A stretch of 46,072 bases of DNA, from the NCBI GenBank assembly GCA_963693555.1, contig CAVOAA010000001.1, positions 1-46,072 on the forward strand, read 5' to 3'. Shown here in pieces: positions 872 through 41,695 of this stretch (its first letter is position 1; each line of letters starts with the position of its first letter). Position numbers and translations under genes: made by a program. Under the pieces are notes generated by a model. That model was not told where the DNA came from. It searched no databases and saw nothing but the letters and a program-made list of their open reading frames with translations. Source of the stretch: Dehalococcoidia bacterium. GTDB lineage: Bacteria > Chloroflexota > Dehalococcoidia > Lucifugimonadales > UBA3495.

Positions 872-1516
872 ATGACAGCGGAGATCACCAACCTAGACCA
901 GCCCATCGACGCGATGTACCTGATCCACAAAGCACTGCGCGGCGAGGCCGACCGTACGGTTGAGCTTGCCCGGTGTTTAGAAGACGGATGTAGTCTTCAA
1001 CCATTCAAGTTGGCGTTCACGGCCTGGGCCACTTCCATCATGTACCACGCGGAAAAAGAAGTCGGGACCGAGATGACCAAGTCGATCGACGAGACCCGCA
1101 AAGCCGCCGCCCATGACCCCATCGAGCGGGTCAAATGGGCCATCCTTGAAAAAGAGGATGACGAATACTCCAGGCTACTTGAAGGCGTCATGGACGTAAT
1201 GACCGTGTTGGAAGAAGACATCGGCGCCACCAGCGTAATCTCCCGCACCAAGCAACACCTCTATGGACAAGTGATTGCCCTCCGCGTAGCCCAGGAAGAC
1301 CACCTGGAAACCGAAGAGGCGATGGTCCTCCCCCTCCTCAGAGAAAACCTCTCCCCACAGTGTCAGCTGGAAGTCGTAGGCGGCCTCCTGATCGACCGTG
1401 ACGCCGATGACCAACGCTGGGTCCTCGATTGGATATCTCAAGACCTGACGGCCGGTGAAAACGAACTGCTGCTCGCATTGGCTACTCGTATCGAGCAACT
1501 CCTACCGGTAGCCTGA
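872..1516 (+). CDS. Hemerythrin-like (HHE cation-binding) domain protein, paralogue 1
   Basis: IDAMYLIHKALRGE, MYHAEKE and DHLETEEAMVLPLL fit the H..HxxxE / H..ExEE pattern of hemerythrin-like domains. SD GGGAGG lies 7 nt upstream of the ATG. TGA stop. Confidence 0.75.
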   Translation: MTAEITNLDQPIDAMYLIHKALRGEADRTVELARCLEDGCSLQPFKLAFTAWATSIMYHAEKEVGTEMTKSIDETRKAAAHDPIERVKWAILEKEDDEYSRLLEGVMDVMTVLEEDIGATSVISRTKQHLYGQVIALRVAQEDHLETEEAMVLPLLRENLSPQCQLEVVGGLLIDRDADDQRWVLDWISQDLTAGENELLLALATRIEQLLPVA

Positions 1517-1564
1517 CCAGTACTAGATTTCACTAAATCTACAGATCGCTTAATGGGTGAAGGC

Positions 1565-2296
1565 ATGACTGCTGACAACAATCACAGGATAGAAGACCCC
1601 ATAGACGTTATGCCGCTGATACACAAGGCTTTCAGGGCGGTATCGGACCGCACCGAAGCCATGTCCGCCAGCGCGTCCACCTTCGAGGACATCAGCAAAC
1701 TTAATGAATCGTTCGGGTTTTGGATCAAACAGATCGTGTATCACGCCGCCGTCGAAGACGAAGTGATGACCGGGCCGTTGAAGAACGTCCAACCGGTTCG
1801 AGTGCCTGTCCAAGACAACGAGGACGAGCACGCCGCCCTGGCTGGTAAAGCTGTCGAGTTGGCGGAATTCATCGCCCAGGGGAAAGGGGCAGGCCTGGCC
1901 GAGAGTGTCCGCGACGCTGCATTCACCCTGGAAGACGAGCAGCACAAAGAGCTTGAAGACCGGTTCCATGAGGTAGAAGCAGCTCTCGCCGAGGTCCTGG
2001 GTGAAAAGAAAATAACCGCCCGTACTATCCGCCACATCCAAAGCCGGGTGATGGGCGTCCGTATCTTGGAGTTGGACCACTTCGAGAACGAAGAAGCCTT
2101 TGTCATCTCTCTTGTGCGCGATGAAATCGACGAGGCCGGCCAGCTCTACATGGTGCGCCAGCTACTGATAGACGAGTCCGCCGACGACCCGCGCTGGGTC
2201 ATCGACTGGGTGTACTCGGAGCTGAACGAAGCTGATCAGGCGCTGTTGAAAGACCTGGAGACCCGGTTCCAGGGTGCGGTGGCCCTACCCGTTTAA
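1565..2296 (+). CDS. Hemerythrin-like (HHE cation-binding) domain protein, paralogue 2
   Basis: IDVMPLIHKAFRAV, VYHAAVEDE and DHFENEEAFVISLV. I prefer the start at ATG 1565 (MTADNNHRIEDPIDVM) because it parallels paralogue 1 (MTAEITNLDQPIDAM) and follows GAAGG. The ORF track starts at 1553. Confidence 0.75.
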   Translation: MTADNNHRIEDPIDVMPLIHKAFRAVSDRTEAMSASASTFEDISKLNESFGFWIKQIVYHAAVEDEVMTGPLKNVQPVRVPVQDNEDEHAALAGKAVELAEFIAQGKGAGLAESVRDAAFTLEDEQHKELEDRFHEVEAALAEVLGEKKITARTIRHIQSRVMGVRILELDHFENEEAFVISLVRDEIDEAGQLYMVRQLLIDESADDPRWVIDWVYSELNEADQALLKDLETRFQGAVALPV

Positions 2297-9905: not shown

Positions 9906-10226
9906 CCTTAATATCCACTCCATTTCGGGATTGCAAACGGGAGCCTGCCGGTCATTCCCGAAGCGCGTTGGAAGTATATCGCAAGTGGAGCGGGGCAGTA
10001 CAGTACCCAATCCAGTGGGTAATTTACACTTGTCATAACCACCTATAAGCGGTCTATTCCAGGTGCCTATTTCGTGGGTGATTCAGGCGTGGGACTGAGA
10101 CCGGGATTGTGATAATATACGCCTTGGCTTATCTAGAAAATCTATCGAACATAGGCATCGCGTTTTTTTACGCCCGAATTGTGCCTGAATATATCTCCCA
10201 AATAAACACTAACTAGGAGCGAGAGA

Positions 10227-12548
10227 ATGCTTGAGTACAAGCCCAACATGGTGCTCTCCAATGAAGAATTTGACTCGATAGGTTCTTCACCGATCCGCCA
10301 TGACGGAGCTGACAAGGTAACCGGGCGCGCCAGGTACGGCGCCGACAACAACATGCCCGGCATGCTCTACGGGAAGATCCTGCGCAGCCCACACGCTCAC
10401 GCCGTGATCAAATCGGTGGATGCCAGCGCCGCTGAAGCCCTGACCGGCGTCCATGCGGTGGTCACCTCCGCAGACTGGCCGGAGACTTCCATGAAGCTTA
10501 CCGACCTGGCGGAAGGCTCGATCCACAATCTGGGATTCTTGAGCATGAACGTTCTGGCTAGGGGCAAAGTTTTGTACAAGGGCCATCCTGTCGCCGCGGT
10601 GGCTGCAGTAAACGGTCACGTGGCTGAAGCAGCCCTGGCATTGATCAAGGTGGAGTATGAAGTGCTGAAGCCGGTGCTGTCCGCCGCCGAAGCCATGAAA
10701 CCCGACGCTCCGATCCTGCACGAGCGGTTGGCCGCCGTAGCCAGCCCCGCCCTCAGGCCCGGCGGAATATTGGAAGACGACGCCGAAAGCATGCGCACTA
10801 ATATCTCCAACCAGTTTGAATTCAGCCTCGGCGACCTCGAACAGGGCTTCAAAGACGCCGATATCATCGTTGAGAAAGCGACCACCACCCAGCCGGTCCA
10901 CCAAGGCTACATCGAGCCGCAGGCCGGTGTTGCCCACTGGCAGGCAGATGGCAAGGTGACGGTCTGGTCCAGCAGCCAGGGCCAGTTCACGGTCCGTGAC
11001 CAGACTGCCCGGTTCTTGGGCATCCCCGTTGGCCAGGTCAAAGCCATCCCCATGGAGATCGGTGGAGGCTTCGGCGCCAAGGGCATCACCTACGTGGAGC
11101 CTGTGGCGGCCCTCCTGTCCCGCAAGTCCGGCCGTCCGGTGAAGATTCAATTGACTCGGACAGAGGTCTTTGAAGCGACCGGCCCAACCTCAGGTACCCA
11201 GATCAAAGTTAAATTAGGCGCTACCAAAGACGGCAAACTCGTCGCTGCCGAGGCTGAACTGATCTTCGAAGCCGGCGCTTTCCCCGGATCTCCCGTCGGT
11301 GCCGCCGTCCAATGCATGATGGGTCAATACGACATCCCCAACGCTCATCTAAAAGCCATAGACGTGGTGATCAACCTGCCCAAGGCGGCAGCCTACCGGG
11401 CCCCGGGCGCTCCGGCCGCCGCGTTCTGCATGGAAACGGCGATGGATGAACTGGCTGAGAAGCTGGAGATCGATCCCCTGGAGTTCCGCTTGATGAACAG
11501 CGGCAAAGAGGGTTCCCGCCGGGTTACCGGTCCTGTGAACCCCTTGGTTGGCTACATCGAGACCCTGCAGGCAGCGAAAGACCATCAGCACTACAACACC
11601 GAACTGAGCGGTAAGCTGCGAGGGCGCGGCGTGGCCTCCGGGTTCTGGGGCAACAACTCCGGACCCGCCTCGGCTGTGATCGTGGTCAACTCCGACGGCA
11701 CGGTCAGCTTGACCGAGGGTTCACCCGACATCGGCGGCAGCCGTGTGGCCATGGCCATGCACGTTGCCGAGGTCCTGAACCTCTCCGTAGAAGACATCAA
11801 ACCACAGGTTGGCGACACCGACTCCATCGGCTTCACCTCCAATACCGGCGGCAGCAGCGTCACCTTCAAGACCGGTTGGGCCTGCTACACCGCTGCCCAG
11901 AGCGTGAAAGAGCAGATGATCCTGCGGGCCGCCAAGATCTGGGAGATCCCTGAATCAGACGTGGAGTACTCAGAAGCCGTCCTCCAGCACAAGTCGGACC
12001 CGGAACTAAAGCTGACGTTCAAGCAGATCGCCGCCCGGATGATTCCCACCGGAGGCCCCATCGTCGGTTCTGCCGGCGTGAACCCGCCCGGCCCCGGCCC
12101 GTCCATCGGCGTCCATGTGGTTGATGTGGAAGTAGACCCTGAGACTGGCAAAGTGGACATCCTCCGCTACACTGCCGTTCAGGACGCTGGTAAAGCCATC
12201 CACCCGGCCTACGTTGAAGGTCAGATTCAAGGCGGCGCGGTGCAGGGCATCGGCTGGGCGCTGAATGAAGAGTATGTCTACAACGAGAACGGCGCCATGC
12301 TCAACAGCAGCTTCCTGGACTACCGGATGCCCACCTCGCTGGACCTCCCGATGATCGACACGGTCATCGTAGAGGTAGCGAACCCCAACCACCCGTACGG
12401 TGTCAGGGGCGTTGGTGAGGTGCCTATAGTCCCTCCGATGGCCGCTATATCCAACGCCATCTACGACGCCATCGGCGTACGGATGAGCCACCTGCCCATG
12501 TCTCCGGACAAGGTACTAGAGGCCCTCTGGGCCAAAGAGGGCAAGTAA
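10227..12548 (+). CDS. Xanthine dehydrogenase / aldehyde oxidase-family molybdopterin-binding large subunit
   Basis: IRHDGADKVTGRARYGADNNMPGMLYGKILRSPHAHA (a/b hammerhead) and AAYRAPGAPAAAFCMETAMDELA; the 773-aa length is typical. SD AGGAG precedes the ATG. Confidence 0.9.
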   Translation: MLEYKPNMVLSNEEFDSIGSSPIRHDGADKVTGRARYGADNNMPGMLYGKILRSPHAHAVIKSVDASAAEALTGVHAVVTSADWPETSMKLTDLAEGSIHNLGFLSMNVLARGKVLYKGHPVAAVAAVNGHVAEAALALIKVEYEVLKPVLSAAEAMKPDAPILHERLAAVASPALRPGGILEDDAESMRTNISNQFEFSLGDLEQGFKDADIIVEKATTTQPVHQGYIEPQAGVAHWQADGKVTVWSSSQGQFTVRDQTARFLGIPVGQVKAIPMEIGGGFGAKGITYVEPVAALLSRKSGRPVKIQLTRTEVFEATGPTSGTQIKVKLGATKDGKLVAAEAELIFEAGAFPGSPVGAAVQCMMGQYDIPNAHLKAIDVVINLPKAAAYRAPGAPAAAFCMETAMDELAEKLEIDPLEFRLMNSGKEGSRRVTGPVNPLVGYIETLQAAKDHQHYNTELSGKLRGRGVASGFWGNNSGPASAVIVVNSDGTVSLTEGSPDIGGSRVAMAMHVAEVLNLSVEDIKPQVGDTDSIGFTSNTGGSSVTFKTGWACYTAAQSVKEQMILRAAKIWEIPESDVEYSEAVLQHKSDPELKLTFKQIAARMIPTGGPIVGSAGVNPPGPGPSIGVHVVDVEVDPETGKVDILRYTAVQDAGKAIHPAYVEGQIQGGAVQGIGWALNEEYVYNENGAMLNSSFLDYRMPTSLDLPMIDTVIVEVANPNHPYGVRGVGEVPIVPPMAAISNAIYDAIGVRMSHLPMSPDKVLEALWAKEGK

Positions 12549-12554
12549 CCGGAG

Positions 12555-12824
12555 ATGGCGGAAGTTTGGATCCCGCCCAAGTTGCAGCAGTTGACCGGCG
12601 GTAATCAGCAGGTCCAGGTGGAAGGCACCACCGTTCGCCGGTTGATCAACAACCTGGAAGCGAAGTATCCGGGAATAAAGGAATTCCTTGTCGACGAAGT
12701 AGAGGAAGACCTGGTCCCCGGTCTAGCCGTGATAATCGACGGCGAGGTCAGCCTACTAGGTATGCTGGATAAGGTCCTGGAGAACAGCGAGGTCCACTTT
12801 CTTCCTGCTATCGGCGGCGGCTGA
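12555..12824 (+). CDS. CysO/MoaD/ThiS-family beta-grasp sulfur-carrier protein ending in GGG
   Basis: 89 aa. IPPKLQQLTGGNQQVQVEGTTVRRLINNLEAKYPGIKEFL...SEVHFLPAIGGG resembles the CysO-type pattern (IP..L....GG...V...G.T......LEA.Y.GI...L). It starts 6 nt after the XDH stop, with GGAG inside the upstream gene's end. Confidence 0.75.
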   Translation: MAEVWIPPKLQQLTGGNQQVQVEGTTVRRLINNLEAKYPGIKEFLVDEVEEDLVPGLAVIIDGEVSLLGMLDKVLENSEVHFLPAIGGG

Positions 12825-12858
12825 CAGGGTCTTCGAGCACCTAGACACGGAAATATGT

Positions 12859-12898
12859 GGCGGGGCCGGCGGAAACGCTGGTCCCGCCGCTTGATTTT
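12859..12898 (+). terminator. Terminator after the CysO-like gene
   Basis: Stem GGCGGGGCC (12859-12867) / GGTCCCGCC (12880-12888, one G-U pair), followed by TTGATTTT. Confidence 0.6.
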
Positions 12899-12924
12899 GA
12901 TCGCATGATCAGCAAACCAGAGGT

Positions 12925-13377
12925 ATGAGCATGGCAGAGCATGGACCGATCAGGATACGCCCCAAGTTTAGCCCCCAGGCGCAGCGTGAAGTGCGCCGCA
13001 ATACCCCCTTGCGTCAGGCGCGAACCTGCTACGGACACCTGGCCGGAGTAGCCGGCGTGGCGCTGATGGACGAGCTGCTCAGCCTGGAATGGGTCGCAGA
13101 AAACGAGGAACCTATCTCCGGCAACCGCGTCGGCTATTCTTTGACTGCGACAGGACGCCAGGCGATGGACGAGATGGGCGTTGACCTGGCTGAGGCCGGC
13201 AGGTCCACCGGCAATTTCGCCTTTGGTTGTCTGGACTGGACCGAGAGTGGACACCATCTGGGCGGGTCTTTGGGCCGGGCGTTCACGGCCTGCCTGACCG
13301 AACGCGGCCTTGTGGGAAGAGAACCAGGCACCAGGGAAGTCCAATTACAGGGCGTTCCGGGTTCTTGGCTGAGATAA
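12925..13377 (+). CDS. Stand-alone homologue of the C-terminal domain found in long ArsR-type regulators (no N-terminal HTH present)
   Basis: ARTCYGHLAGVAGVALMDELL...YSLTATGRQAMDEMGVDL...FGCLDWTESGHHLGGSLGRAF matches the ARTCYDHLAG...CLDWSER.PHLAG module. Only about 30 residues precede it. Confidence 0.55.
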   Translation: MSMAEHGPIRIRPKFSPQAQREVRRNTPLRQARTCYGHLAGVAGVALMDELLSLEWVAENEEPISGNRVGYSLTATGRQAMDEMGVDLAEAGRSTGNFAFGCLDWTESGHHLGGSLGRAFTACLTERGLVGREPGTREVQLQGVPGSWLR

Positions 13378-13511
13378 CCCGGTCCAGTTAGACCGGGGGT
13401 TGGACGGCGGTGCCTCCCGCCGTTAGAATACGCGTGCCTTTGACCCGTGACCAACATGATTGCCTTGTATGGTTGCGTTGGGGAACCTGATTTTATCTGG
13501 AGTGAACACCC

Positions 13512-14798: not shown

Positions 14799-17700
14799 GT
14801 GTACGTGATTGGAATCGACGTCGGTGGCACGTTCACCGACTTTGTAGTCGCTCAGGAAGGCCAACCTCCCCGCTATTTCAAGACTGCCTCCACGCCCAAC
14901 GACCCGTCCGAGGGTCTGATGACCGGGCTAGGTGATGCCGCCGCCGCCCACGACTTGTCGTTGGAGGACTTTCTGGCTGCGGCCGACATGATCATCCACG
15001 GCAGCACCGTGGCCACCAACACCCTGGTGGAGCGCAAAGGCGCCAAGGTCGGGCTGATCACCACCGACGGCTTTCGGGACCTGCTGGAGATGCGTGAGGG
15101 GCTGAAAGAAGACCGCTACAACCTGCGCATGACCCCAGTGGTGCCGCTGGTGCCCAGGTATCTGCGTTCCGAGGTTCCAGAGCGAGTCAGGTCTGACGGT
15201 AGCACCAAAGTCGCCCTGGATGAAGATGCCCTGAACGCGGCCCTCGACGGCTTGAAAGACGAGGGTGTCGAAGCCCTGGCCGTCTGCTTCCTGTTCTCCT
15301 ACCTGAACTCCGCTCACGAGGACCGGGTCGGCGAGATCATCCAGGCCAAGTTCCCCGGTATGTACACCTCGCTGTCATCTCAGGTCATCCCCCAGATAAA
15401 AGAGTTTGACCGTCTCAGCACCACCGTGATCAACTCCTACGTGGGCCCCGTCCTAGGACGATATCTGGAGAACCTGCAAGAGCGGTTAACCCAGATCAAC
15501 ACTTCCGGCCAACACTCCGCCGACTTCCTGATCATGCAGTCCAACGGCGGCGTTGCGCCCATCGAGGACTCACGCCGCTTGGCGGTGCGTTCCATTCTGT
15601 CCGGCCCTGCCGGCGGTGTCAGTGGCGCGGCAGCCTACGGACGGCTGTCCGGGTCGAACGATATCATCGCCTTCGATATGGGCGGCACCAGCACCGATAT
15701 TTCACTGATAGAGAACGGCGAACCCCATCTGAGCACCGAAAAATTCGAGGCTGGCTGGAAGATATCGGTGCCGATGATCGATATCCATACTATGGGTGCA
15801 GGCGGGGGCAGCATCGCCTCCGTTGGCCCCGGCGGCATCATGCAGGTGGGTCCGGAGAGCGCCGGCGCCATGCCCGGCCCGGCTGCCTACGGCAAGGGCG
15901 GCGAAAAACCCACGGTCACCGACGCCAACCTGGCCCTGGGCTACCTGGATGCAGGTAACTTCCTGGGTGGCAGCACAGTGCTCGATAAATCGCTGTCTGA
16001 GGAAGCAATCGCCGGACACGTAGCACAGCCCACCGGCCTTTCAATGGTCGAGGCGGCCGAGGGTATCTCCGAAGTGGTATCAACGTCCATCGCCGAGGGA
16101 ATTCGGCTGATGTCTGTGCAACGCGGCGTCGACCCACGCCGGTTCACCATGATGGCCTTTGGCGGCGCAGCCGGGCTCCAGGCCGGAAAAGTGGCCAGGC
16201 AGCTCCAGGTGGAGAAGGTGATCATTCCAGCCGCGGCCGCTGTTCTATCGGCCCACGGGATGCTGTCCACCGACCTCAAATACGACTATTCCCGGTCCCA
16301 CCCGTCCGCGCTCCTGAGCATGGACCTAGATGCTGTCAAGAACCTGGTAGCCGGGATGGAAGACGAAGGCCGTCAAAAGTTGCTGGGTCAGGGTGTGCCG
16401 GAGGAGAAGATCGAGGTCACGATTTCCGCCGACATGCGCTACCTAGACCAGATATATGAAGTCAACGTTCCGATTCCCAACCTGACCCAGGGCGCTGAAA
16501 CGCTGCTGAACCAGTGGGCAGAGAACTTCCATCAGCGTTACCGGGAGCTGTATTCCTACAGTCAGTCTGAACAGGAGATACGGCTGGTGACGGTACGAGT
16601 GAGCGTGGTGGGACGCCTGCCCAAGCTGGACCCGCCGCCGCTGGAAACTGGAAGCGGCCAGCCTGCCAAGCCGAAGGGAAGCAGACAGATCTACTTGGGC
16701 GGTTGGACGGACGCTCCGATCTACGAGATATCAGAGCTATCACCCGGCAGTTCGGTGGACGGCCCGGCCGTGTTGGAGTCGGACTTCACCACCGTGCTGG
16801 TTGAGACCGGTGATAAGGCGACCATCGACCCCTATGGCGGAATTGAATTGCAGGTGTCTTTAGAATCTACTGGCACGGCTGCTGCTGCGACGGACCGGCC
16901 AGATCCCGTGACTCTGGCGGTGGTGGAGCACCGTTTGGAGTCCATCGCCCGGGAGATGACCGAGGTGATGCTGCGGACGGCCATGTCCCAGATACTGAAC
17001 TCCAGCCGCGATTTCTCCACCGCAATTTTGGACGCCGAATGCCAGTTGGTGGCCCAGGGCGAAGGAATCCCGGTACACGTGAGCGCCCTGCCGGTGGCTG
17101 GTGCGGCGGTGCGGGACTACTTTGGCGATAGCATCTCTGAAGGCGACTTGTTCATCTTGAACGACCCCTATTTCGGCGGCAGCCACTTGCCCGACATCAC
17201 CATCATCAAGCCCGTCTTTCATGAAGGAAAGCTGCTGTTCTACGGCGTGAACCGTGCTCACCACAGCGATGTCGGCGGCGGCACCCACGGCGGCTACAAC
17301 CCCCGCGCCACCGAGATTTTCCAGGAGGGCATCCGCATCCCGCCGCTGAAGCTGTACGACAAGGGCGTTCCCAGAGAAGATGTTCTGCAGATGCTCTCGG
17401 CCAATGTGCGCCAGCCGGAGAATTTCCTGGGTGATTTGAACGCCCAGATTGGTTCAACGATGATTGCCGCCCAGCGCATCGCCGAGCTGTTGGAGAGCTA
17501 CGGGTCGGAAAGGCTGTTGGCGTCGGTTGAGGAGATACTCTCCGCCACCGAGCGTCAGGTGCGGCAGTTCATCACGGAGTGGCCTGATGGCGTCTACTAC
17601 GGCGAGTCCCTGGTGGACGACGATGGCTTCGATAACAAACTGATCCCGATCCGGGCCAAGGTGACAATCGCCGGAGACTCCATGGCCATCGACCTGGGTG

Positions 17701-18530
17701 AGTCCAGCAAGCAGGTCACCGGGTTCATCAACAGCGCCTACGCCAACACCCGCTCGCTGGCCCACGCCGCCATCATGTATGTGGCACCGTCCAACGTGGC
17801 CAAGAACGAAGGGTCGATGCGGCCGGTTGACATAATCGCGCCCAAAGGCCTGATAGTAAACGCCAACCCACCCGCGCCGGTGTGCATGAGCACCAACCAC
17901 TGCGCCGAAGAAATCGTCGAGGCTATCTTCAAGGCCTTGGCTCAAGCCGTGCCCAAGGAAGTGAACGCTGGGTTCTCGAGGCGTCTGCGTTACGCAATCA
18001 CCGGCATGGACCCACGCACCGGCCGTCAGTTCATCTGGCACTTCTTCCTGGCCAGAGGCGGTGGCGGCGCAACCTATGGGTATGACGGTTGGCCTGGTGT
18101 CGGCGAGATTAACGTGGCCGGTGGTATACGCAGTCCCAGCATAGAAGTCACCGAAGAGCGGTTCCCATTCTTCATCCGCAGGCACGAGATACGCCCCAAC
18201 TCGGGCGGGCAGGGAGAGTGGCGCGGCGGAGTGGGCGGAATCTGCGACCTGGTCTACGAGGGGGAAGGCCCGGCCCTGCTGAACACGGCCGGCGACGGCA
18301 TCGTCGTGCCGCCCTTTGGCCTATTTGACGGCCAAGACGGCCTCCCGCACGACTACAAGCTCATCTGCAACGGCGTCGACCGGCCCCTTGGCTCCAAGGA
18401 GACCGAGGTCGTCGTCAACCCGGGAGACCACGTCTACTGCCTGTCATCGGGCGGCGGTGGCTACGGCAACCCATCCGACCGCAGCAAGGAAGCAGACGCG
18501 TGGGACAAGCTGAACGGGTACGTGGAATAG
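14799..18530 (+). CDS. Fused hydantoinase A / hydantoinase B (HyuA-HyuB; 5-oxoprolinase / N-methylhydantoinase-type ATP-dependent amidohydrolase)
   Basis: The N-terminus VIGIDVGGTFTDFV and FDMGGTSTD mark the HyuA ASKHA fold. From about residue 700, DPVTLAVVEHRLESIAREM...LNDPYFGGSHLPD marks HyuB. GTG start with GGGGAG upstream. Confidence 0.85.
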   Translation: MYVIGIDVGGTFTDFVVAQEGQPPRYFKTASTPNDPSEGLMTGLGDAAAAHDLSLEDFLAAADMIIHGSTVATNTLVERKGAKVGLITTDGFRDLLEMREGLKEDRYNLRMTPVVPLVPRYLRSEVPERVRSDGSTKVALDEDALNAALDGLKDEGVEALAVCFLFSYLNSAHEDRVGEIIQAKFPGMYTSLSSQVIPQIKEFDRLSTTVINSYVGPVLGRYLENLQERLTQINTSGQHSADFLIMQSNGGVAPIEDSRRLAVRSILSGPAGGVSGAAAYGRLSGSNDIIAFDMGGTSTDISLIENGEPHLSTEKFEAGWKISVPMIDIHTMGAGGGSIASVGPGGIMQVGPESAGAMPGPAAYGKGGEKPTVTDANLALGYLDAGNFLGGSTVLDKSLSEEAIAGHVAQPTGLSMVEAAEGISEVVSTSIAEGIRLMSVQRGVDPRRFTMMAFGGAAGLQAGKVARQLQVEKVIIPAAAAVLSAHGMLSTDLKYDYSRSHPSALLSMDLDAVKNLVAGMEDEGRQKLLGQGVPEEKIEVTISADMRYLDQIYEVNVPIPNLTQGAETLLNQWAENFHQRYRELYSYSQSEQEIRLVTVRVSVVGRLPKLDPPPLETGSGQPAKPKGSRQIYLGGWTDAPIYEISELSPGSSVDGPAVLESDFTTVLVETGDKATIDPYGGIELQVSLESTGTAAAATDRPDPVTLAVVEHRLESIAREMTEVMLRTAMSQILNSSRDFSTAILDAECQLVAQGEGIPVHVSALPVAGAAVRDYFGDSISEGDLFILNDPYFGGSHLPDITIIKPVFHEGKLLFYGVNRAHHSDVGGGTHGGYNPRATEIFQEGIRIPPLKLYDKGVPREDVLQMLSANVRQPENFLGDLNAQIGSTMIAAQRIAELLESYGSERLLASVEEILSATERQVRQFITEWPDGVYYGESLVDDDGFDNKLIPIRAKVTIAGDSMAIDLGESSKQVTGFINSAYANTRSLAHAAIMYVAPSNVAKNEGSMRPVDIIAPKGLIVNANPPAPVCMSTNHCAEEIVEAIFKALAQAVPKEVNAGFSRRLRYAITGMDPRTGRQFIWHFFLARGGGGATYGYDGWPGVGEINVAGGIRSPSIEVTEERFPFFIRRHEIRPNSGGQGEWRGGVGGICDLVYEGEGPALLNTAGDGIVVPPFGLFDGQDGLPHDYKLICNGVDRPLGSKETEVVVNPGDHVYCLSSGGGGYGNPSDRSKEADAWDKLNGYVE

Positions 18531-18538
18531 CTGGTCGT

Positions 18539-19108
18539 TCAGACTGCCTGAACCGCGCCCTTGAACCGGTCCCTTATCTCCTCAGGCGTGTGGGAAACCC
18601 GGGGGATGCCCTCAAGGGGGGCGATTCCGGCTTTCACTAAGATCAGGCTTAGCTGGCCGCCGTTCGTTGCTTCGGTCAGGGCTGCTTCCAGTTCCTCTAG
18701 GTCTTCGACACGGCGTGTCCACGGGTAGCCGGTCGTGTTGGCCGTCTGAGCCAGGTCGAAGTTGGAGCTGATGCTTGGTTGCCCGCCGGTGGACTCGTAG
18801 GCCTCGTTGTCCAGGATGATGTGGACAAGGTTGGCCGGCTGCTCTGAGGCGATCAGTGGTAGTGTCCCCAGGCTCATCATTGCGCTGCCGTCGCCTTCCA
18901 GCACGAACACCCGCTTGTTGGGGGCCTGTAGGGCGAGACCCAGCCCCATGGCCGAAGCCAGCCCCATGGACCCAATCATGTAGAAGTTGCCGGGACGGTC
19001 TTTTAGGGTGAATAACTCCCGGGAAATCATGCCAGTGGTGCTAATCACCAGGTCGCCGCTTCCGACGTGAGCCAGGATACTTTCTATAGCCTGGTAGCGT
19101 GCGATCAA
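18539..19108 (-). CDS. comE: TPP-dependent sulfopyruvate/phosphonopyruvate decarboxylase, beta subunit (ComE-like)
   Basis: TPP-binding motif GDGSAMMSLGTLPLIA...NLVHIILDNEAYESTGGQ. The TTG start overlaps the alpha-subunit stop (TTGA). Confidence 0.7.
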   Translation of the reverse strand: MIARYQAIESILAHVGSGDLVISTTGMISRELFTLKDRPGNFYMIGSMGLASAMGLGLALQAPNKRVFVLEGDGSAMMSLGTLPLIASEQPANLVHIILDNEAYESTGGQPSISSNFDLAQTANTTGYPWTRRVEDLEELEAALTEATNGGQLSLILVKAGIAPLEGIPRVSHTPEEIRDRFKGAVQAV

Positions 19109-19599
19109 GATATTACCCCGGACCGGACCAGCAGCGCCCCTGGAATCGAACGCTCTTTGATGGTCTCCAACAGCAGGTCCAAGACCGCGTCCAGGTTATC
19201 GGGCTCTAATATCTCGTAGGGGACTTCCAGCAAGTTAAAGAACTCCGGTGTTTTGGCGCCCATTATCCAGTGCTCGAGAGCGTCGTTGGGCGGTCCGCCG
19301 TAGCCGCGCCAGCCCACGATCAGCAGTGCCGGTATCTTGTACATCAGGTTGAACGAAGTCAGCGGGTTGACCAGGTTGCCTACCCCGGAATTCTGCAGGA
19401 TCACCCCGCCGAGACCACCGGTAAAAAAAGTGGCGCTGGCGATGCCCAGGGCAACGTCTTCCCGCACCGCCGGTACGTAGCGAATGTCCGGGTCGTTGAC
19501 CATCACGTTGTAGGCGTCATGGAAGGTGGAATCCGGGACTCCGGAGAAGAAATTCAGTCCCCGACCCTTCAGCGCGGCCCAGAAATCATGGGCGTCCAT
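19105..19599 (-). CDS. comD: TPP-dependent sulfopyruvate/phosphonopyruvate decarboxylase, alpha subunit (ComD-like)
   Basis: FWAALKGRGLNFFSGVPDSTF...NSGVGNLVNPLTS is typical of the pyrimidine-binding half of ComD/Ppd enzymes. Confidence 0.7.
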   Translation of the reverse strand: MDAHDFWAALKGRGLNFFSGVPDSTFHDAYNVMVNDPDIRYVPAVREDVALGIASATFFTGGLGGVILQNSGVGNLVNPLTSFNLMYKIPALLIVGWRGYGGPPNDALEHWIMGAKTPEFFNLLEVPYEILEPDNLDAVLDLLLETIKERSIPGALLVRSGVIS

Positions 19600-39019: not shown

Positions 39020-39160
39020 CCAACCCGCCTCCGGGCTGCCTTTCCCCGGCTGATCATCCCCCACTGTCTCCGCGACTGGTGCCGTGCCTCCGGCTATGTG
39101 CTAAACTCCGTTATCGAGTCTGGGTATGCTCGAATATGCGGATTTTTGGAGGGCGCGCTA

Positions 39161-40585
39161 ATGTTGGACTTGGTCATAAAGGGTGGACAAGTTGTAACCC
39201 CCATGGGAGTTGGCGAGTGGGACGTTGCGATTCAAGGTGAAAAGATAGTGGCGGTGGCCGCCCCGGGTGCTCTGCCCGAAGAAGCCGGCCGTGTGATCGA
39301 CGCGAAGGGGATGATTGTGGTGCCCGGCGGCATCGAGCCTCACGCCCACATATCCGCGCCTATCATGGGCCACGGCGACCTGCTAACCGCCCCTCCCGAA
39401 GAGGTCAGCCGCGCCGCCCTGATCGGCGGCACCACCATGCTGATGGACTTTGCCATCCAATACCCAGGCGTCGACATTCCCCAGGCCATCAAGGAGCGGA
39501 CCGACGTCTGGCAGGGTAACTCCTACGCCGATTACGCCCACCACCTGATGCTCCTGGGTTCCATTCCTCCCGAGATTTTGGGCTCATTGCATGAAGCGGT
39601 GGAAGACGGGTTCCCCAGCTTCAAGATCTTCACGACCAACATCCGGCCGCCGGCCACCACCGGAGAGCCGCGCATGGTCGGCACGGGCCACCTCCACGAC
39701 CTGATGGAGGAGATTCAGCGCATGAACGCCATGCTGCTGGTCCACTCTGAAGACGACGACATGGTGCAGCATATGTACCAGAAGTTGGCCCGGGAAGAGA
39801 ATACCGAGTGGTACAACATGCACCTGGTCCACAGCGCCGAGTCCGAAGACGTTTCTTTCCGTCGGGTGCTCCGGGTCGCCGAATGGACCGGCGCACCGGT
39901 CTACTTCGTCCACGTGAGTGCCACCCAGGGACTCCAGGCTATCTTGGAGGCACGCTCCAACGGCCGCCCCGTCTACGGCGAGACTCTGCACAACTACTGC
40001 TGCTTCAGCTCCGACGACTATAAAGAAGAGAATGGCATGAAGTATCACACCTATCCTTCTTTGAAATCGGAAGCCGACCGGCAGTCGCTCTGGGACGGAA
40101 TCGTGAACAACGGCCTCAGCACCATGGCCACCGACGAGTACTGCACATCCTGGGAAACCAAAATATCCGGCCGTTCTGTCTCGGACGTGACCGGAGGCCA
40201 CAACGGCGCCGAGGCCCGCATGGGTGTGACCTACAGCGAGGGAGTCTCCCGCCGCGGCATGTCCCTGCAACGGTTCGTCGACGTTTCTTCGGCCAACGCG
40301 GCCAAGATCATGGGCCTATACCCCCGCAAGGGTGTGCTGGCTCCGGGCAGCGACGCCGACGTCACGCTGATCGACACCAATTTCAAGCGCAAACTGACTA
40401 TTAACGACTTCCACATCTCCGACTACAGCATCTGGGAAGGGTTTGAGGCCGACGGCTGGCCCGTGACCACCATTCTCAGAGGTAATGTGGTGGTGGAAAA
40501 CCGGGAGTTCAAGGCCGCCCCCGGCAGCGGCAAGTTCATCCCAAGAAAGGTAGACACAGCCGTAACCAACCGCCCCGTAGCCTAG
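39161..40585 (+). CDS. Dihydropyrimidinase / D-hydantoinase-type cyclic amidohydrolase
   Basis: DLVIKGGQVV..., VVPGGIEPHAH (HxH metal site), SFKIF (carbamylated Lys region), and GSDADVTLID in the C-terminal region. ATG 39161 is preceded by GGAGGG at 7 nt; the ORF track starts at 39098. Confidence 0.85.
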   Translation: MLDLVIKGGQVVTPMGVGEWDVAIQGEKIVAVAAPGALPEEAGRVIDAKGMIVVPGGIEPHAHISAPIMGHGDLLTAPPEEVSRAALIGGTTMLMDFAIQYPGVDIPQAIKERTDVWQGNSYADYAHHLMLLGSIPPEILGSLHEAVEDGFPSFKIFTTNIRPPATTGEPRMVGTGHLHDLMEEIQRMNAMLLVHSEDDDMVQHMYQKLAREENTEWYNMHLVHSAESEDVSFRRVLRVAEWTGAPVYFVHVSATQGLQAILEARSNGRPVYGETLHNYCCFSSDDYKEENGMKYHTYPSLKSEADRQSLWDGIVNNGLSTMATDEYCTSWETKISGRSVSDVTGGHNGAEARMGVTYSEGVSRRGMSLQRFVDVSSANAAKIMGLYPRKGVLAPGSDADVTLIDTNFKRKLTINDFHISDYSIWEGFEADGWPVTTILRGNVVVENREFKAAPGSGKFIPRKVDTAVTNRPVA

Positions 40586-40692
40586 CCCACATAGTGGGGG
40601 TTTCATGGGGCGGCGTATTTGCGTATTAACGTGTAGGCACGCGGCATAGATGGTTTAAATGTGGCGGAAGCAGGTTTCGGTAGGAGTAGAAG

Positions 40693-41253
40693 ATGGCTCG
40701 GATCAGGTTGGTGCCTACGGAGGAATTGACTCCGGGGCTTCGTAAGATCGCCAAGGGTGCGGAGGCGCACAAGCTGAACCCGGCCATCTTTCAGGCGGCT
40801 GGGAACTTGCCCGGCGCCTACGAGGCCTTCTGGGATTTTTACGGGCCTCTCAAGCTGGAGGGGCTACTGGAACAGAGGCTTAAGGAGCTGGTCCGGCTTA
40901 AGATCGCTGACCTGAACCAATGCGCCACTTGAAAACTCGGCAGGGCTGTACCGGCGGTGCAGCAGGGAATGACTGAGGAGATGATCGCCAGCCTCACTGA
41001 CGTTGAGAGCGCGGAGATCACTGAGCGTGAGAGACTGGCGGTCCGCTTCGCTCAGCGTATGGCCACCGACCACCACAGCATGGATGACGACTTCTTCGAC
41101 GAACTCCGTGATGAGTTTACTGACCCTGAGATATTCGAACTGGGCATGATCACGGGGCAGTTCATCGGCTATGGCAGGCTGATATCGATCTTGGACCTGG
41201 AAAACCCCGACCAACCCGAAGTCAGGAGGCACGAACATGACCTCGTCAAATAG
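40693..41253 (+). CDS. Carboxymuconolactone decarboxylase (CMD)/AhpD-like protein with an in-frame TGA at 40930-40932 (candidate selenocysteine in a CxxU motif; otherwise a pseudogene)
   Basis: ORFs 40693-40932 and 40957-41253 share one frame. The joined sequence LKIADLNQCAT[TGA]KLGRAVPAVQQGMTEEMIASL...ERERLAVRFAQRMATD...FELGMITGQF is one CMD fold. The TGA aligns with the second Cys of the family's CxxC motif. Confidence 0.6.
40945..40963 (+). promoter_or_regulatory. Putative bacterial SECIS-like hairpin
   Basis: GCUGUACC-GGC-GGUGCAGC: an 8-bp stem with one G-U pair and a G-containing apical loop. It starts 12 nt after the UGA. Confidence 0.45.
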
Positions 41254-41695
41254 CAACACAGACGCCATGCGGGAGCGGCTCCGGAGCTTGATTCCGGCGG
41301 GCGGCAAAGACGGCCCCACCCAAGGGGTGAACCACATAGCTGTGTTCGCCAAAGACCTGGAAGCAACGGCAAAGTTCTATGAAGAGATCATGGATATGCC
41401 GGTTGTCAGCGTTGCGCCAAACCGGGACGCGGACGAGTCGACCCACATGAATGTTGCGATCGGAAACGGCATGCGGCTTTCATTCTTCGACTTCCCACAC
41501 GTGCCGCGCCTGCAGAAGAAGGCGCCCGAGGGCGTGGGCAACGTCATGCACATAGCCCTGCCCATTGACCGGAAGATATTTTTAGAGATCAAAGGCCGGT
41601 GCGACCAGAACAAGATCAAGTACCAGGAAGGTGGCGGGGCAATCTACGTGAAAGACCCCAACGGTCTGGCAATAGAGTTGATGCCTTACGACTAG
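41237..41695 (+). CDS. VOC-family (glyoxalase/bleomycin-resistance/dioxygenase) protein
   Basis: VNHIAVFAKDLEATAKFYEEIMDMPVV..., HIALPI, GGGAIYVKDPNGLAIEL. SD GGAGG lies 7 nt upstream. It overlaps the CMD gene by 17 nt. Confidence 0.8.
   Translation: MTSSNSNTDAMRERLRSLIPAGGKDGPTQGVNHIAVFAKDLEATAKFYEEIMDMPVVSVAPNRDADESTHMNVAIGNGMRLSFFDFPHVPRLQKKAPEGVGNVMHIALPIDRKIFLEIKGRCDQNKIKYQEGGGAIYVKDPNGLAIELMPYD

What the first reader, a model, noticed from the sequence alone, without database searches (positions are those of the whole stretch)
40693..41253. CMD/AhpD-like gene split by an in-frame TGA at the second redox-Cys position, with a SECIS-like hairpin 12 nt downstream: candidate CxxU selenoprotein
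Seen in the sequence: ORFs 40693-40932 and 40957-41253 are in the same frame, and the 24 nt between them contain no other stop. Read through, they give one 186-codon product: ...LVRLKIADLNQ-C-A-T-[TGA]-KLGRAVPAVQQGMTEEMIASLTDVESAEITERERLAVRFAQRMATD.... The two pieces are the N- and C-halves of a single carboxymuconolactone-decarboxylase/AhpD fold, so neither is a plausible stand-alone protein. The TGA (40930-40932) aligns with position +3 after the conserved Cys, which is the second Cys of the CxxC motif in redox-active family members. Twelve nt after the TGA sits an 8-bp hairpin (40945-40963, GCUGUACC-GGC-GGUGCAGC) with a G-containing apical loop. Its spacing and size are comparable to the E. 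coli fdhF minimal SECIS. Established knowledge: AhpD-like/CMD selenoproteins have been reported from marine metagenome surveys. TGA is an ordinary stop elsewhere in this window (for example 1514-1516), so this is not a code reassignment. Caveat: the His usually found four residues after the second Cys (CxxCxxxH) is Arg here, which keeps a simple nonsense mutation possible.
Basis: partly seen in the sequence, partly recalled or inferred. Interest (0 to 1): 0.75.

Follow-up and report, generated by a model that had tools for sequence, protein, structure and literature searches.

The report
AhpD-like selenocysteine (CxxU) gene with SECIS
The apparent "split" gene is one intact gene for a small redox protein, whose internal TGA almost certainly encodes selenocysteine with help from an RNA hairpin just downstream; this is a correct catch, but the selenoprotein family has been known from ocean metagenomes since 2005-2008.

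Summary
ORFs 40693-40932 and 40957-41253 are one 186-codon CMD/AhpD-fold gene, interrupted only by TGA 40930-40932, with an 8-bp/GGC-loop hairpin at 40945-40963.

- All 100 homologous loci I recovered (SAR202/Dehalococcoidia, Binatia, soil and sediment contigs; 44-95 % identity) also have TGA at this column.
- dN/dS is equally low on both sides of the TGA (about 0.05).
- The Arg four codons after the TGA is invariant yet uses all six Arg codons, so ribosomes read through.
- The hairpin persists in six clades with different stem sequences (7 of 8 pairs covary) and meets all published bacterial SECIS criteria.
- More distant full-length relatives carry Cys at the column (CxxCxxxR in 36 of 41).
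- The column aligns to the second catalytic Cys of P. aeruginosa PA0269.

It is not new. A 49 %-identical orthologue is listed with U under "AhpD-like 1" in the 2008 GOS selenoproteome. Dehalococcoidia MAGs are documented as selenoprotein-rich.

The biochemical substrate is unknown.

Verdict: a genuine new member of a known kind, of low to moderate interest.

The parts
40682..40686 (+). Shine-Dalgarno-like AGGAG, 6 nt upstream of the ATG
   Evidence: Read. An SD-like motif precedes the true start in 84 of 87 homologous loci.
40693..41253 (+). Complete selenoprotein gene: 186 residues including Sec80, CMD/AhpD-like fold, stop TAG 41251-41253
   Evidence: PDB profile hit to PA0269 (2o4d) at E = 1.4e-17 over profile positions 31-168. 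100 homologous loci have the same architecture.
40885..40887 (+). Glu65 codon; aligns to the proton-relay Glu36 of PA0269
   Evidence: Invariant in alignment A1. Aligned to the E of 'LIELVYL' in 2o4d. Residue role taken from PMC3141380.
40921..40923 (+). Cys77 codon (TGC), the first residue of the CxxU redox motif
   Evidence: Cys in 101 of 101 loci, encoded by TGC 89 and TGT 12. Aligns to Cys48 of PA0269.
40930..40932 (+). In-frame TGA read as selenocysteine (Sec80)
   Evidence: TGA in 101 of 101 loci. Cys at this column in 36 of 41 full-length distant homologues. Aligns to Cys51 of PA0269.
40942..40944 (+). Arg84 codon (AGG), replacing the His of the AhpD CxxCxxxH motif
   Evidence: Arg in 101 of 101 loci, encoded by all six Arg codons. 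Also Arg in the Cys-form homologues.
40945..40963 (+). bSECIS hairpin: 5' arm 40945-40952, apical loop GGC 40953-40955, 3' arm 40956-40963
   Evidence: Folds. bSECIS criteria met. Covariation: 91.9 % of cells paired, 7 of 8 pairs changed on both sides, slid controls 16-56 %. RNAalifold finds the same helix de novo.
40957..40959 (+). GTG (Val89) inside the 3' arm; this is what ORF finders take as the start of the 'second ORF', and it is not a real start
   Evidence: No SD-like motif upstream in 98 of 101 loci. The codons between the TGA and this GTG are under protein-level selection.
41237..41695 (+). Context: glyoxalase/VOC-family gene overlapping the 3' end of the selenoprotein gene by 17 nt (probably co-transcribed)
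   Evidence: Pfam PF00903. Adjacency is conserved only in the marine SAR202 clade.
39098..40585 (+). Context: amidohydrolase gene upstream, same strand
   Evidence: Pfam PF01979. Conserved upstream neighbour in the SAR202 clade.

Best explanation
Window 40693-41253 is a single functional gene for an AhpD-like (COG2128/YciW-type, CMD-fold) selenoprotein in a marine SAR202-type Dehalococcoidia genome.

During translation, the hairpin at 40945-40963 (8 bp, GGC apical loop, loop 20 nt after the UGA) acts as a bacterial SECIS. It recruits SelB-GTP-Sec-tRNA(Sec), so UGA 40930-40932 is decoded as selenocysteine instead of terminating.

The product carries a Cys77-Ala-Thr-Sec80 redox centre, with Glu65 and Arg84 nearby. 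Sec occupies the position of the second catalytic Cys of AhpD-like proteins. The protein most likely cycles between a selenol/thiol state and a selenenylsulfide state, acting as a peroxide- or disulfide-reducing oxidoreductase.

Shown here: gene continuity, conservation of the UGA, translation through the UGA, the conserved and covarying hairpin, the Cys/Sec pairing, and the fold and active-site alignment.

Inferred: SelB dependence, actual Se incorporation, the redox chemistry, and the substrate or partner.
For: - **UGA conservation.** TGA at the identical column in 101 of 101 loci spanning 44-95 % identity, from 17 species-representative genomes (SAR202/Dehalococcoidia, Binatia) and 83 metagenome contigs.
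- **Purifying selection on both sides.** dN/dS is 0.047 upstream and 0.056-0.065 downstream.
- **Translation through the UGA.** Arg at U+4 is invariant and uses all six Arg codons; Gly at U+12 uses all four codons.
- **No internal start.** An SD-like motif precedes the true start in 84 of 87 loci, but the internal GTG in only 3 of 101.
- **Hairpin conservation.** Six clades have different stems at the same place: GCUGURCC-GGC-GGURCAGC, GCCGCRCC-GGC-GGUGCGGC, CUGCACA-GGC-UGUGCAG, CUGCAC-AGGCC-GUGCAG, UUUCCAUC-GGC-GAUGGAAA and CCAUCGC-GGA-GCGAUGG.
- **Covariation.** 91.9 % of cells are paired against 16-56 % in slid controls; 7 of 8 pairs change on both sides; the covariation score is 0.338 against 0.192 for shuffles (0 of 500 reach it). 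RNAalifold finds the helix de novo.
- **RNA-level constraint.** dS is depressed over the hairpin codons, and Pro at U+7 uses CCG in 75 of 77 cases, its third base being the first loop G.
- **bSECIS criteria all met.** Loop 3 nt, stem 8 bp, G in the first two loop positions, spacing 20 nt, -11.2 kcal/mol (against the model quoted in PMC13188914).
- **Cys/Sec pairing.** Cys at the column in 36 of 41 full-length homologues. The closest, P0017, is 41 % identical, with CNTC aligned to CAT-U.
- **Active-site alignment.** PA0269 aligns Glu36/Cys48/Cys51 to E65/C77/U80. PA0269 reduces H2O2 weakly in a thiol-dependent way (PMC3141380).
- **Prior annotation.** A 49 %-identical GOS read is annotated with U under 'AhpD-like 1'.
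- **Lineage.** Dehalococcoidia MAGs with 46-49 selenoproteins are listed in BSepDB (PMC13326102).
- **Genetic code.** TGA ends 5 of 30 ordinary genes in the window.
Against: - No selA, selB, selD or tRNA-Sec lies in the 46-kb window or in the about 0.35 Mb of homologous loci. This is uninformative for a 3-5 Mb genome, but it leaves the machinery unverified for this organism.
- No Rfam SECIS family matches.
- In a few orthologues the stem is weakened: a C-A mismatch in L003, and weakened stems in L044 and L078.
- The hairpin lies in coding sequence, so part of its conservation (for example loop bases G34 and C35 of alignment A2, which belong to an invariant Ala codon) also reflects protein constraint.
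- The canonical AhpD proton-relay His is absent, being Arg here. No AhpC/Prx partner gene is nearby, so the peroxidase-type chemistry is only an analogy.
Confidence: 0.93

Rival explanations
1. Pseudogene, nonsense mutation or assembly error: the TGA is a defect in an otherwise CxxC-type CMD gene.
For: Public gene callers split the gene into fragments (P0001-P0005; P0010-P0016).
Against: - TGA is present in 101 of 101 independent loci from several phyla and habitats.
- dN/dS downstream of the TGA is as low as upstream.
- Arg is invariant in both the Sec forms and the Cys forms.
Confidence: 0.01
2. Genuinely split gene: two polypeptides (79 aa and about 98 aa) are made separately, with the second re-initiating at the conserved GTG/ATG nine codons after the TGA, and they then assemble into one fold.
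For: A potential start codon sits at U+9 in 95 of 101 loci: GTG in 88 and ATG in 7. A hairpin between the stop and a restart codon could in principle modulate coupling.
Against: - The eight codons between the TGA and that GTG are under protein-level selection: Arg at U+4 is invariant while using six synonymous codons.
- An SD-like motif is found upstream of the internal codon in only 3 of 101 loci, against 84 of 87 at the true start.
- Six loci have GTA, which is not a start codon.
- The split would delete exactly the second catalytic residue that Cys-form homologues keep.
Confidence: 0.03
3. Read-through of the UGA by something other than Sec: near-cognate Trp, Cys or Arg insertion, or a reassigned genetic code.
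For: The Sec machinery was not observed in the sequence available.
Against: - TGA terminates 5 of 30 ordinary genes in the window.
- The same UGA is kept in unrelated phyla.
- Homologues have Cys precisely at this column.
- The hairpin has the geometry and G-rich loop of a bSECIS.
- The family was previously classified as a selenoprotein.
- The class is known to be selenoprotein-rich.
Confidence: 0.03

Closest known systems
AhpD-like 1 selenoprotein family (COG2128, CxxU) of the Sargasso Sea and GOS selenoproteomes (PMC1088965, PMC2398784)
   Same: CMD/AhpD fold, CxxU motif with Sec at the second redox position, a bSECIS just downstream, and a marine origin. One listed member (JCVI_READ_1050337...KELVRLKIARLNDCFTULNARFPSAMENGLTE...) is 49 % identical over 170 residues and clearly belongs to the same subfamily.
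   Different: The numerically dominant AhpD-like 1 type (…NECEYUIRAHLYDL…, CxxUxxxH, about 130 aa) is only 18 % identical to this protein. The present subfamily has CxxUxxxR and an extra N-terminal segment of about 40 residues. TIGR01926, the model the 2026 review gives for 'AhpD-like protein', is matched only below its cut-off (47.3 against 81.8 bits).
PA0269 of Pseudomonas aeruginosa (PDB 2o4d/2ijc/7xw1), an AhpD-like protein
   Same: Best solved relative (E = 1.4e-17). Glu36/Cys48/Cys51 align with E65/C77/U80. It shows thiol-dependent weak H2O2 reduction (PMC3141380).
   Different: PA0269 has Cys, not Sec. It has His55 where this protein has Arg84, and Tyr50 where this one has Thr79. It also lacks the N-terminal extension.
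Mycobacterium tuberculosis AhpD (CxxCxxxH; partner of AhpC)
   Same: The same helix-turn-helix active-site motif and the same Glu...CxxC arrangement (described in PMC3141380).
   Different: There is no AhpC or Prx gene in the neighbourhood. His137 corresponds to Arg here. The chain topology differs (the motif is C-terminal in Mtb AhpD). The assignment of the second Cys (Cys133) as the nucleophile rests on my own recollection of Koshkin et al. 2003 and was not verified here.
E. coli fdhF SECIS and the bacterial SECIS consensus model
   Same: A stem-loop starting about 11-12 nt after the UGA, a small apical loop with G in the first positions, and a loop 16-37 nt from the UGA (criteria quoted in PMC13188914; met).
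   Different: The loop is a 3-nt GGC/GGA without the GU plus bulged-U signature of fdhF (from my own knowledge). No Rfam SECIS model matches.
NF053654 'GroundWater_YciW, YciW-related (seleno)protein' (NCBIfam)
   Same: Top NCBIfam hit; the same superfamily, and a family known to include Sec forms.
   Different: Score 58.6 bits against a cut-off of 310, so this protein is not a member. No NCBIfam model captures this subfamily, so automatic annotation is likely to split it, as the fragmentary database proteins suggest.

Membership tests
Bacterial selenoprotein gene (Sec-UGA plus bSECIS) | In-frame UGA conserved among orthologues, with coding sequence under purifying selection on both sides | tested here: met
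   TGA in 101 of 101 loci. dN/dS is 0.047 upstream and 0.056-0.065 downstream. Arg at U+4 is invariant through six codons.
Bacterial selenoprotein gene (Sec-UGA plus bSECIS) | Homologues with Cys at the aligned position | tested here: met
   36 of 41 full-length homologues have CxxCxxxR. P0017 aligns CNTC to CAT-U. PA0269 Cys51 aligns to the column.
Bacterial selenoprotein gene (Sec-UGA plus bSECIS) | bSECIS model: 3-9 nt loop, 4-16 bp stem, G in the first two loop positions, 16-37 nt from UGA to loop, MFE <= -7.5 kcal/mol | tested here: met
   Loop GGC (3 nt), 8-bp stem, 20-nt spacing, -11.2 kcal/mol. Criteria taken from PMC13188914.
Bacterial selenoprotein gene (Sec-UGA plus bSECIS) | Hairpin maintained by compensatory change across relatives | tested here: met
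   7 of 8 pairs change on both sides; 91.9 % of cells paired against 16-56 % in slid controls. De novo RNAalifold finds the same helix.
Bacterial selenoprotein gene (Sec-UGA plus bSECIS) | selA, selB, selD and tRNA-Sec present in the same genome | not testable with these tools
Indirect support: BSepDB lists Dehalococcoidia MAGs with 46-49 selenoproteins.
Bacterial selenoprotein gene (Sec-UGA plus bSECIS) | Selenium demonstrated in the protein | not testable with these tools
   Experimental question (75Se labelling or mass spectrometry).
AhpD-like selenoprotein family (GOS 'AhpD-like 1', COG2128, CxxU) | CxxU motif in an AhpD/CMD-fold protein, homologous to listed members | tested here: met
   C77-A-T-U80. 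49 % identity (E = 1e-55) to the listed member JCVI_READ_1050337.
TIGR01926 peroxidase-related enzyme (model cited for 'AhpD-like protein' in PMC13188914) | Score above the curated cut-off of 81.8 bits | tested here: not met
   47.3 bits, E = 2e-12. It is a related protein but not a formal member.
NF053654 GroundWater_YciW (seleno)protein | Score above the curated cut-off of 310 bits | tested here: not met
   58.6 bits.
Pfam CMD (PF02627) | Score above the gathering threshold of 23 bits | tested here: met
   28.3 bits over residues 40-121, spanning the Sec position.
Canonical AhpD (M. tuberculosis/PA0269 type) | Proton relay Glu ... Cys-x-x-Cys-x-x-x-His | tested here: not met
   Glu65 and Cys77 are present. 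The second Cys is Sec. His is replaced by an invariant Arg84.
Canonical AhpD (M. tuberculosis/PA0269 type) | Genomic association with ahpC or a peroxiredoxin | tested here: not met
   No Prx or AhpC among the window genes or in the neighbours of other clades (those were read by eye, not Pfam-tested).

The most novel reading that the evidence does not exclude
The CxxUxxxR clade may be a distinct enzyme class that strictly requires Sec. No Cys orthologue was found among the 100 closest loci, which span Chloroflexota, Binatota and soil lineages. Its Arg-for-His active site, and its recurrent placement beside catabolic amidohydrolase, hydantoinase/oxoprolinase, TauD-like, P450 and luciferase-like genes, could reflect a chemistry other than peroxide reduction. 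One example would be selenol-driven reductive dehalogenation or heteroatom reduction, akin to the distantly related CMD-fold debrominase Bmp8 (PDB 6ohi, E = 3.8e-6). That would tie selenium use to SAR202-style degradation of recalcitrant organic matter.
Probability: 0.1. Interest if true: 0.5.

Novelty: new member of a known kind. Interest (0 to 1): 0.2.

Why it matters
In practice this is an annotation correction. Standard gene callers split the gene into a 79-aa fragment and a fragment of about 98 aa, as the many truncated database entries show. No curated NCBIfam model reaches its cut-off for this subfamily. Selenoproteomes of SAR202, Binatia and soil bacteria will therefore be under-counted unless such genes are joined.

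Biologically, it adds a well-supported example, with unusually clean SECIS covariation, of a subfamily in which none of the 100 recovered orthologues has reverted to Cys. The subfamily is shared between deep-ocean Chloroflexota and soil lineages, and Arg replaces the AhpD proton-relay His. It does not change the understanding of Sec decoding or of the AhpD-like family.

Tried and rejected
- **Rfam.** Scans at gathering threshold and permissive threshold gave no SECIS or other meaningful hit. The three weak hits (TCL6_1, adapt33_3, sR1) are noise.
- **tRNA-Sec.** ARAGORN found none in the window or in 19 loci.
- **Sec machinery.** Pfam annotation of 30 window ORFs found no selA, selB or selD.
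- **Other Sec candidates in the window.**
  - Of 36 TGA-joined ORF pairs, only the CMD gene had a redox-motif (C-x-x-TGA) context; the rest looked like overlapping or antisense ORFs.
  - Of 362 open TGA contexts, four combined a nearby Cys with a bSECIS-grade hairpin.
  - The three others (1365-, 21581+, 30351-) are antisense or out of frame inside intact genes, so only the CMD gene survives.
I used the C-terminal half instead.
  - No structure prediction was run, because the PDB profile match already places the fold and the motif.
  - The listing of cluster members rejects the letter U.
- **BSepDB.** No supplementary files are held for it, so I could not check whether the genomes carrying orthologues are listed there.
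- **Function from synteny.** The amidohydrolase/glyoxalase neighbourhood is confined to the SAR202 clade, and other clades have unrelated neighbours. No conserved partner emerged.
- **Caveat on "no Cys orthologue".** Only the best 80 of 245 metagenome relatives were kept. Cys forms at around 40 % identity do exist.

Full report
**1. Observation**

- An ATG at 40693, preceded by AGGAG at 40682-40686, opens a frame that meets TGA at 40930-40932.
- The frame continues without any other stop to TAG at 41251-41253.
- Read through, it gives 186 residues with the local sequence ...KELVRLKIADLNQ-C-A-T-[TGA]-K-L-G-R-A-V-P-A-V-Q-Q-G-M-T-E-E....
- Pfam CMD (PF02627) matches residues 40-121, across the TGA, above its gathering score (28.3 against 23 bits).
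- The top NCBIfam hits fall below their cut-offs: NF053654 'YciW-related (seleno)protein' at 58.6 against 310 bits, and TIGR01926 'peroxidase-related enzyme' at 47.3 against 81.8 bits.
- The hairpin GCUGUACC-GGC-GGUGCAGC occupies 40945-40963 and is the core of the predicted fold (z = -2.89).

By itself the hairpin is weak evidence. In this GC-rich window about 2 % of all positions are followed by a hairpin that meets the bSECIS criteria at <= -10 kcal/mol.

**2. Comparative evidence for a conserved, translated UGA**

The word-indexed protein search returned fragments that end exactly at ...CAT or begin just after it. It also returned one full-length relative with CQRC.

I then fetched DNA for 100 homologous loci:
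- three by exact protein look-up;
- 17 from species-representative genomes: marine SAR202/Dehalococcoidia/Chloroflexota MAGs at 75-91 % identity and Binatia at 44-48 %;
- 80 metagenome contigs at 45-95 % identity.

Every one of them has TGA at the same column as the window, three codons after an invariant Cys. That makes 101 of 101 including the window.

Several results show that ribosomes translate through the UGA.
- dN/dS is the same on both sides. In the marine clade it is 0.047 for the 40 codons before the TGA, 0.065 for the 22 codons after it, and 0.056 for 50 codons further downstream.
- The Arg four codons after the TGA is invariant yet is encoded by AGG, CGG, CGC, CGA, AGA and CGT. The Gly at +12 uses all four codons.
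- The putative start of the 'second ORF' (GTG/ATG at +9, and GTA in six loci) has an SD-like motif upstream in only 3 of 101 loci. The true start has one in 84 of 87.

These results exclude a pseudogene, an assembly error and a split two-polypeptide gene. TGA ends 5 of 30 ordinary genes in the window, which excludes a reassigned code.

**3. The hairpin is a conserved RNA structure**

Six clades carry different stem sequences at the same place:
- GCUGURCC-GGC-GGURCAGC (SAR202)
- GCCGCRCC-GGC-GGUGCGGC (a soil clade)
- CUGCACA-GGC-UGUGCAG
- CUGCAC-AGGCC-GUGCAG
- UUUCCAUC-GGC-GAUGGAAA
- CCAUCGC-GGA-GCGAUGG (Binatia, shifted 2 nt towards the UGA)

I tested this on an ungapped alignment of 68 distinct sequences (A2).
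- 91.9 % of cells form pairs, against 16-56 % when the partner column is slid.
- 7 of 8 pairs show changes on both sides.
- The covariation score is 0.338 against 0.192 for shuffles, and 0 of 500 shuffles reach it.
- The three Binatia rows are out of register in this alignment and count as breaks, so the figures are conservative.
- RNAalifold predicts the same helix de novo, with compensatory change at 6 of 7 pairs.

Synonymous-site behaviour also points to an RNA constraint. dS is depressed over the 22 codons that hold the hairpin (0.84 against 1.24-1.44 in the marine clade; 0.31 against 0.50 in the soil clade). Pro at +7 uses CCG in 75 of 77 cases, and its third base is the first loop G.

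The window hairpin meets all four criteria of the published bacterial SECIS model, as quoted in PMC13188914. Its values are a 3-nt loop, an 8-bp stem, GG at the start of the loop, 20 nt from UGA to loop, and -11.2 kcal/mol.

Rfam has no model that matches it. To my knowledge, Rfam's bacterial SECIS models cover specific clades only.

**4. Sec occupies a catalytic Cys position**

An exhaustive HMMER search with the C-terminal half found 658 representatives. These were a mixture of two kinds. Fragments of about 90-110 residues start just after the TGA position; these are truncated Sec forms. The others are full-length proteins of 150-220 residues.

Of 41 full-length relatives examined:
- 36 have C-x-x-C-x-x-x-R at the aligned site;
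- three lack the second Cys;
- two are chimeric.

The closest full-length Cys form, P0017, is 41 % identical and aligns CNTC-KNAR to CAT[U]-KLGR.

A profile search of the PDB gives P. aeruginosa PA0269 (2o4d/2ijc) at E = 1.4e-17. It aligns Glu36, Cys48 and Cys51 to E65, C77 and U80, and His55 to R84. PA0269's proton relay (Glu36, Cys48, Tyr50, Cys51, His55) and its weak, thiol-dependent H2O2 reduction are described in PMC3141380.

Arg in place of His is a fixed trait of this whole subfamily, Cys forms included, and not a sign of decay.

**5. Mechanism**

Shown here:
- a continuous gene;
- a conserved UGA that is translated through;
- a covarying hairpin of SECIS geometry;
- a Cys/Sec pair at a catalytic position of an AhpD-like fold.

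Inferred from established knowledge of bacterial Sec decoding:
- the hairpin binds SelB-GTP-Sec-tRNA(Sec) and so directs Sec insertion at UGA 40930-40932;
- the C77-x-x-U80 centre cycles between a selenol/thiol state and a selenenylsulfide state, as a peroxide- or disulfide-reducing oxidoreductase.

The partner or substrate is unknown.
- In SAR202 the gene sits between an amidohydrolase and a glyoxalase/VOC gene, which overlaps its end by 17 nt.
- That synteny does not extend to other clades. Their neighbours are hydantoinase/oxoprolinase, ABC-transporter/TauD-like, P450, CoA-transferase and luciferase-like genes (read by eye).
- No AhpC or Prx gene is nearby.

**6. What could not be tested**

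No tRNA-Sec, selA, selB or selD occurs in the window or in the fetched loci.

There is indirect support from BSepDB (PMC13326102). It lists Chloroflexota/Dehalococcoidia MAGs with 46-49 selenoproteins among the largest bacterial selenoproteomes.

**7. Comparison with what is known, and novelty**

AhpD-like proteins with CxxU were reported as a new selenoprotein family in the Sargasso Sea (27 sequences; PMC1088965). They ranked fourth in abundance in GOS ('AhpD-like 1', COG2128, 299 sequences; PMC2398784).

The GOS supplement lists read JCVI_READ_1050337 under AhpD-like 1 (...KELVRLKIARLNDCFTULNARFPSAMENGLTE...). It is 49 % identical to the window protein over 170 residues and clearly belongs to the same subfamily. 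The dominant AhpD-like 1 type (CEYUxxxH) is only 18 % identical.

The gene is therefore a new member (a SAR202 orthologue) of a known selenoprotein family, not a new kind of system.

The modestly new points are descriptive:
- the CxxUxxxR signature;
- TGA retained in all 100 orthologous loci recovered, across several phyla and habitats;
- a clean case of SECIS covariation;
- no curated NCBIfam model reaching its cut-off for this subfamily, which would explain why public gene calls split the gene.

**8. Verdict**

My confidence that this is a genuine Sec-encoding gene is about 0.93. The novelty class is 'new member of a known kind', and the interest score is 0.2.

Noticed in passing
L003:10101-10255: In one SAR202-like orthologue (ERZ25766727, a 665-kb contig) the C-terminal half of the selenoprotein gene carries an in-frame insertion of about 155 nt. 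It is bounded by 19-nt inverted repeats (10101-10119 and 10237-10255, 89 % complementary) and looks like a MITE. It adds about 50 residues without a stop codon. The same locus also has a C-A mismatch in the SECIS stem.
   Followed up: partly
window 872-2296 (+): ORF 872-1516 (214 aa, no Pfam hit) ends in TGA 1514-1516. It is followed 36 nt later, in the same frame and with no intervening stop, by ORF 1553-2296 (hemerythrin domain). There is no Cys near the TGA and no qualifying hairpin, so these look like two ordinary adjacent genes.
   Followed up: partly
window 18539-19599 (-): The TPP_enzyme_N (19105-19599) and TPP_enzyme_C (18539-19108) domains are encoded as two separate ORFs overlapping by 4 nt. 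This is the layout of two-subunit sulfopyruvate/phosphonopyruvate-type decarboxylases rather than a broken gene.
   Followed up: no
window 40957-40959 and the homologous codon in all loci: The codon nine positions after the Sec codon is GTG (88), ATG (7) or GTA (6), and it lies in the 3' arm of the SECIS. It is the artefactual 'start' that ORF finders and public gene calls use for the C-terminal fragment.
   Followed up: yes
window 12549-13511: A stretch of about 960 nt between the molybdopterin-dehydrogenase gene and the acyl-CoA-dehydrogenase-like gene. It holds only two overlapping opposite-strand ORFs (12925-13377 + and 12841-13344 -), neither with a Pfam hit, so its coding status is unclear.
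   Followed up: no
L053:2573-3298 (-): A soil contig carrying the Sec gene also encodes, about 0.5 kb downstream on the opposite strand, a second CMD-family paralogue with a classical CEYCTRAH (CxxCxxxH) motif.
   Followed up: no
L017 and L020 (Binatia); window 14799-18530: In Binatia the Sec gene is flanked by hydantoinase A/B (oxoprolinase-type) genes. The SAR202 window also has a fused hydantoinase A-B gene 22 kb away and a cyclic-amidohydrolase gene immediately upstream. This may be a recurrent link to cyclic-amide catabolism. The Binatia neighbours were identified by eye only.
   Followed up: partly
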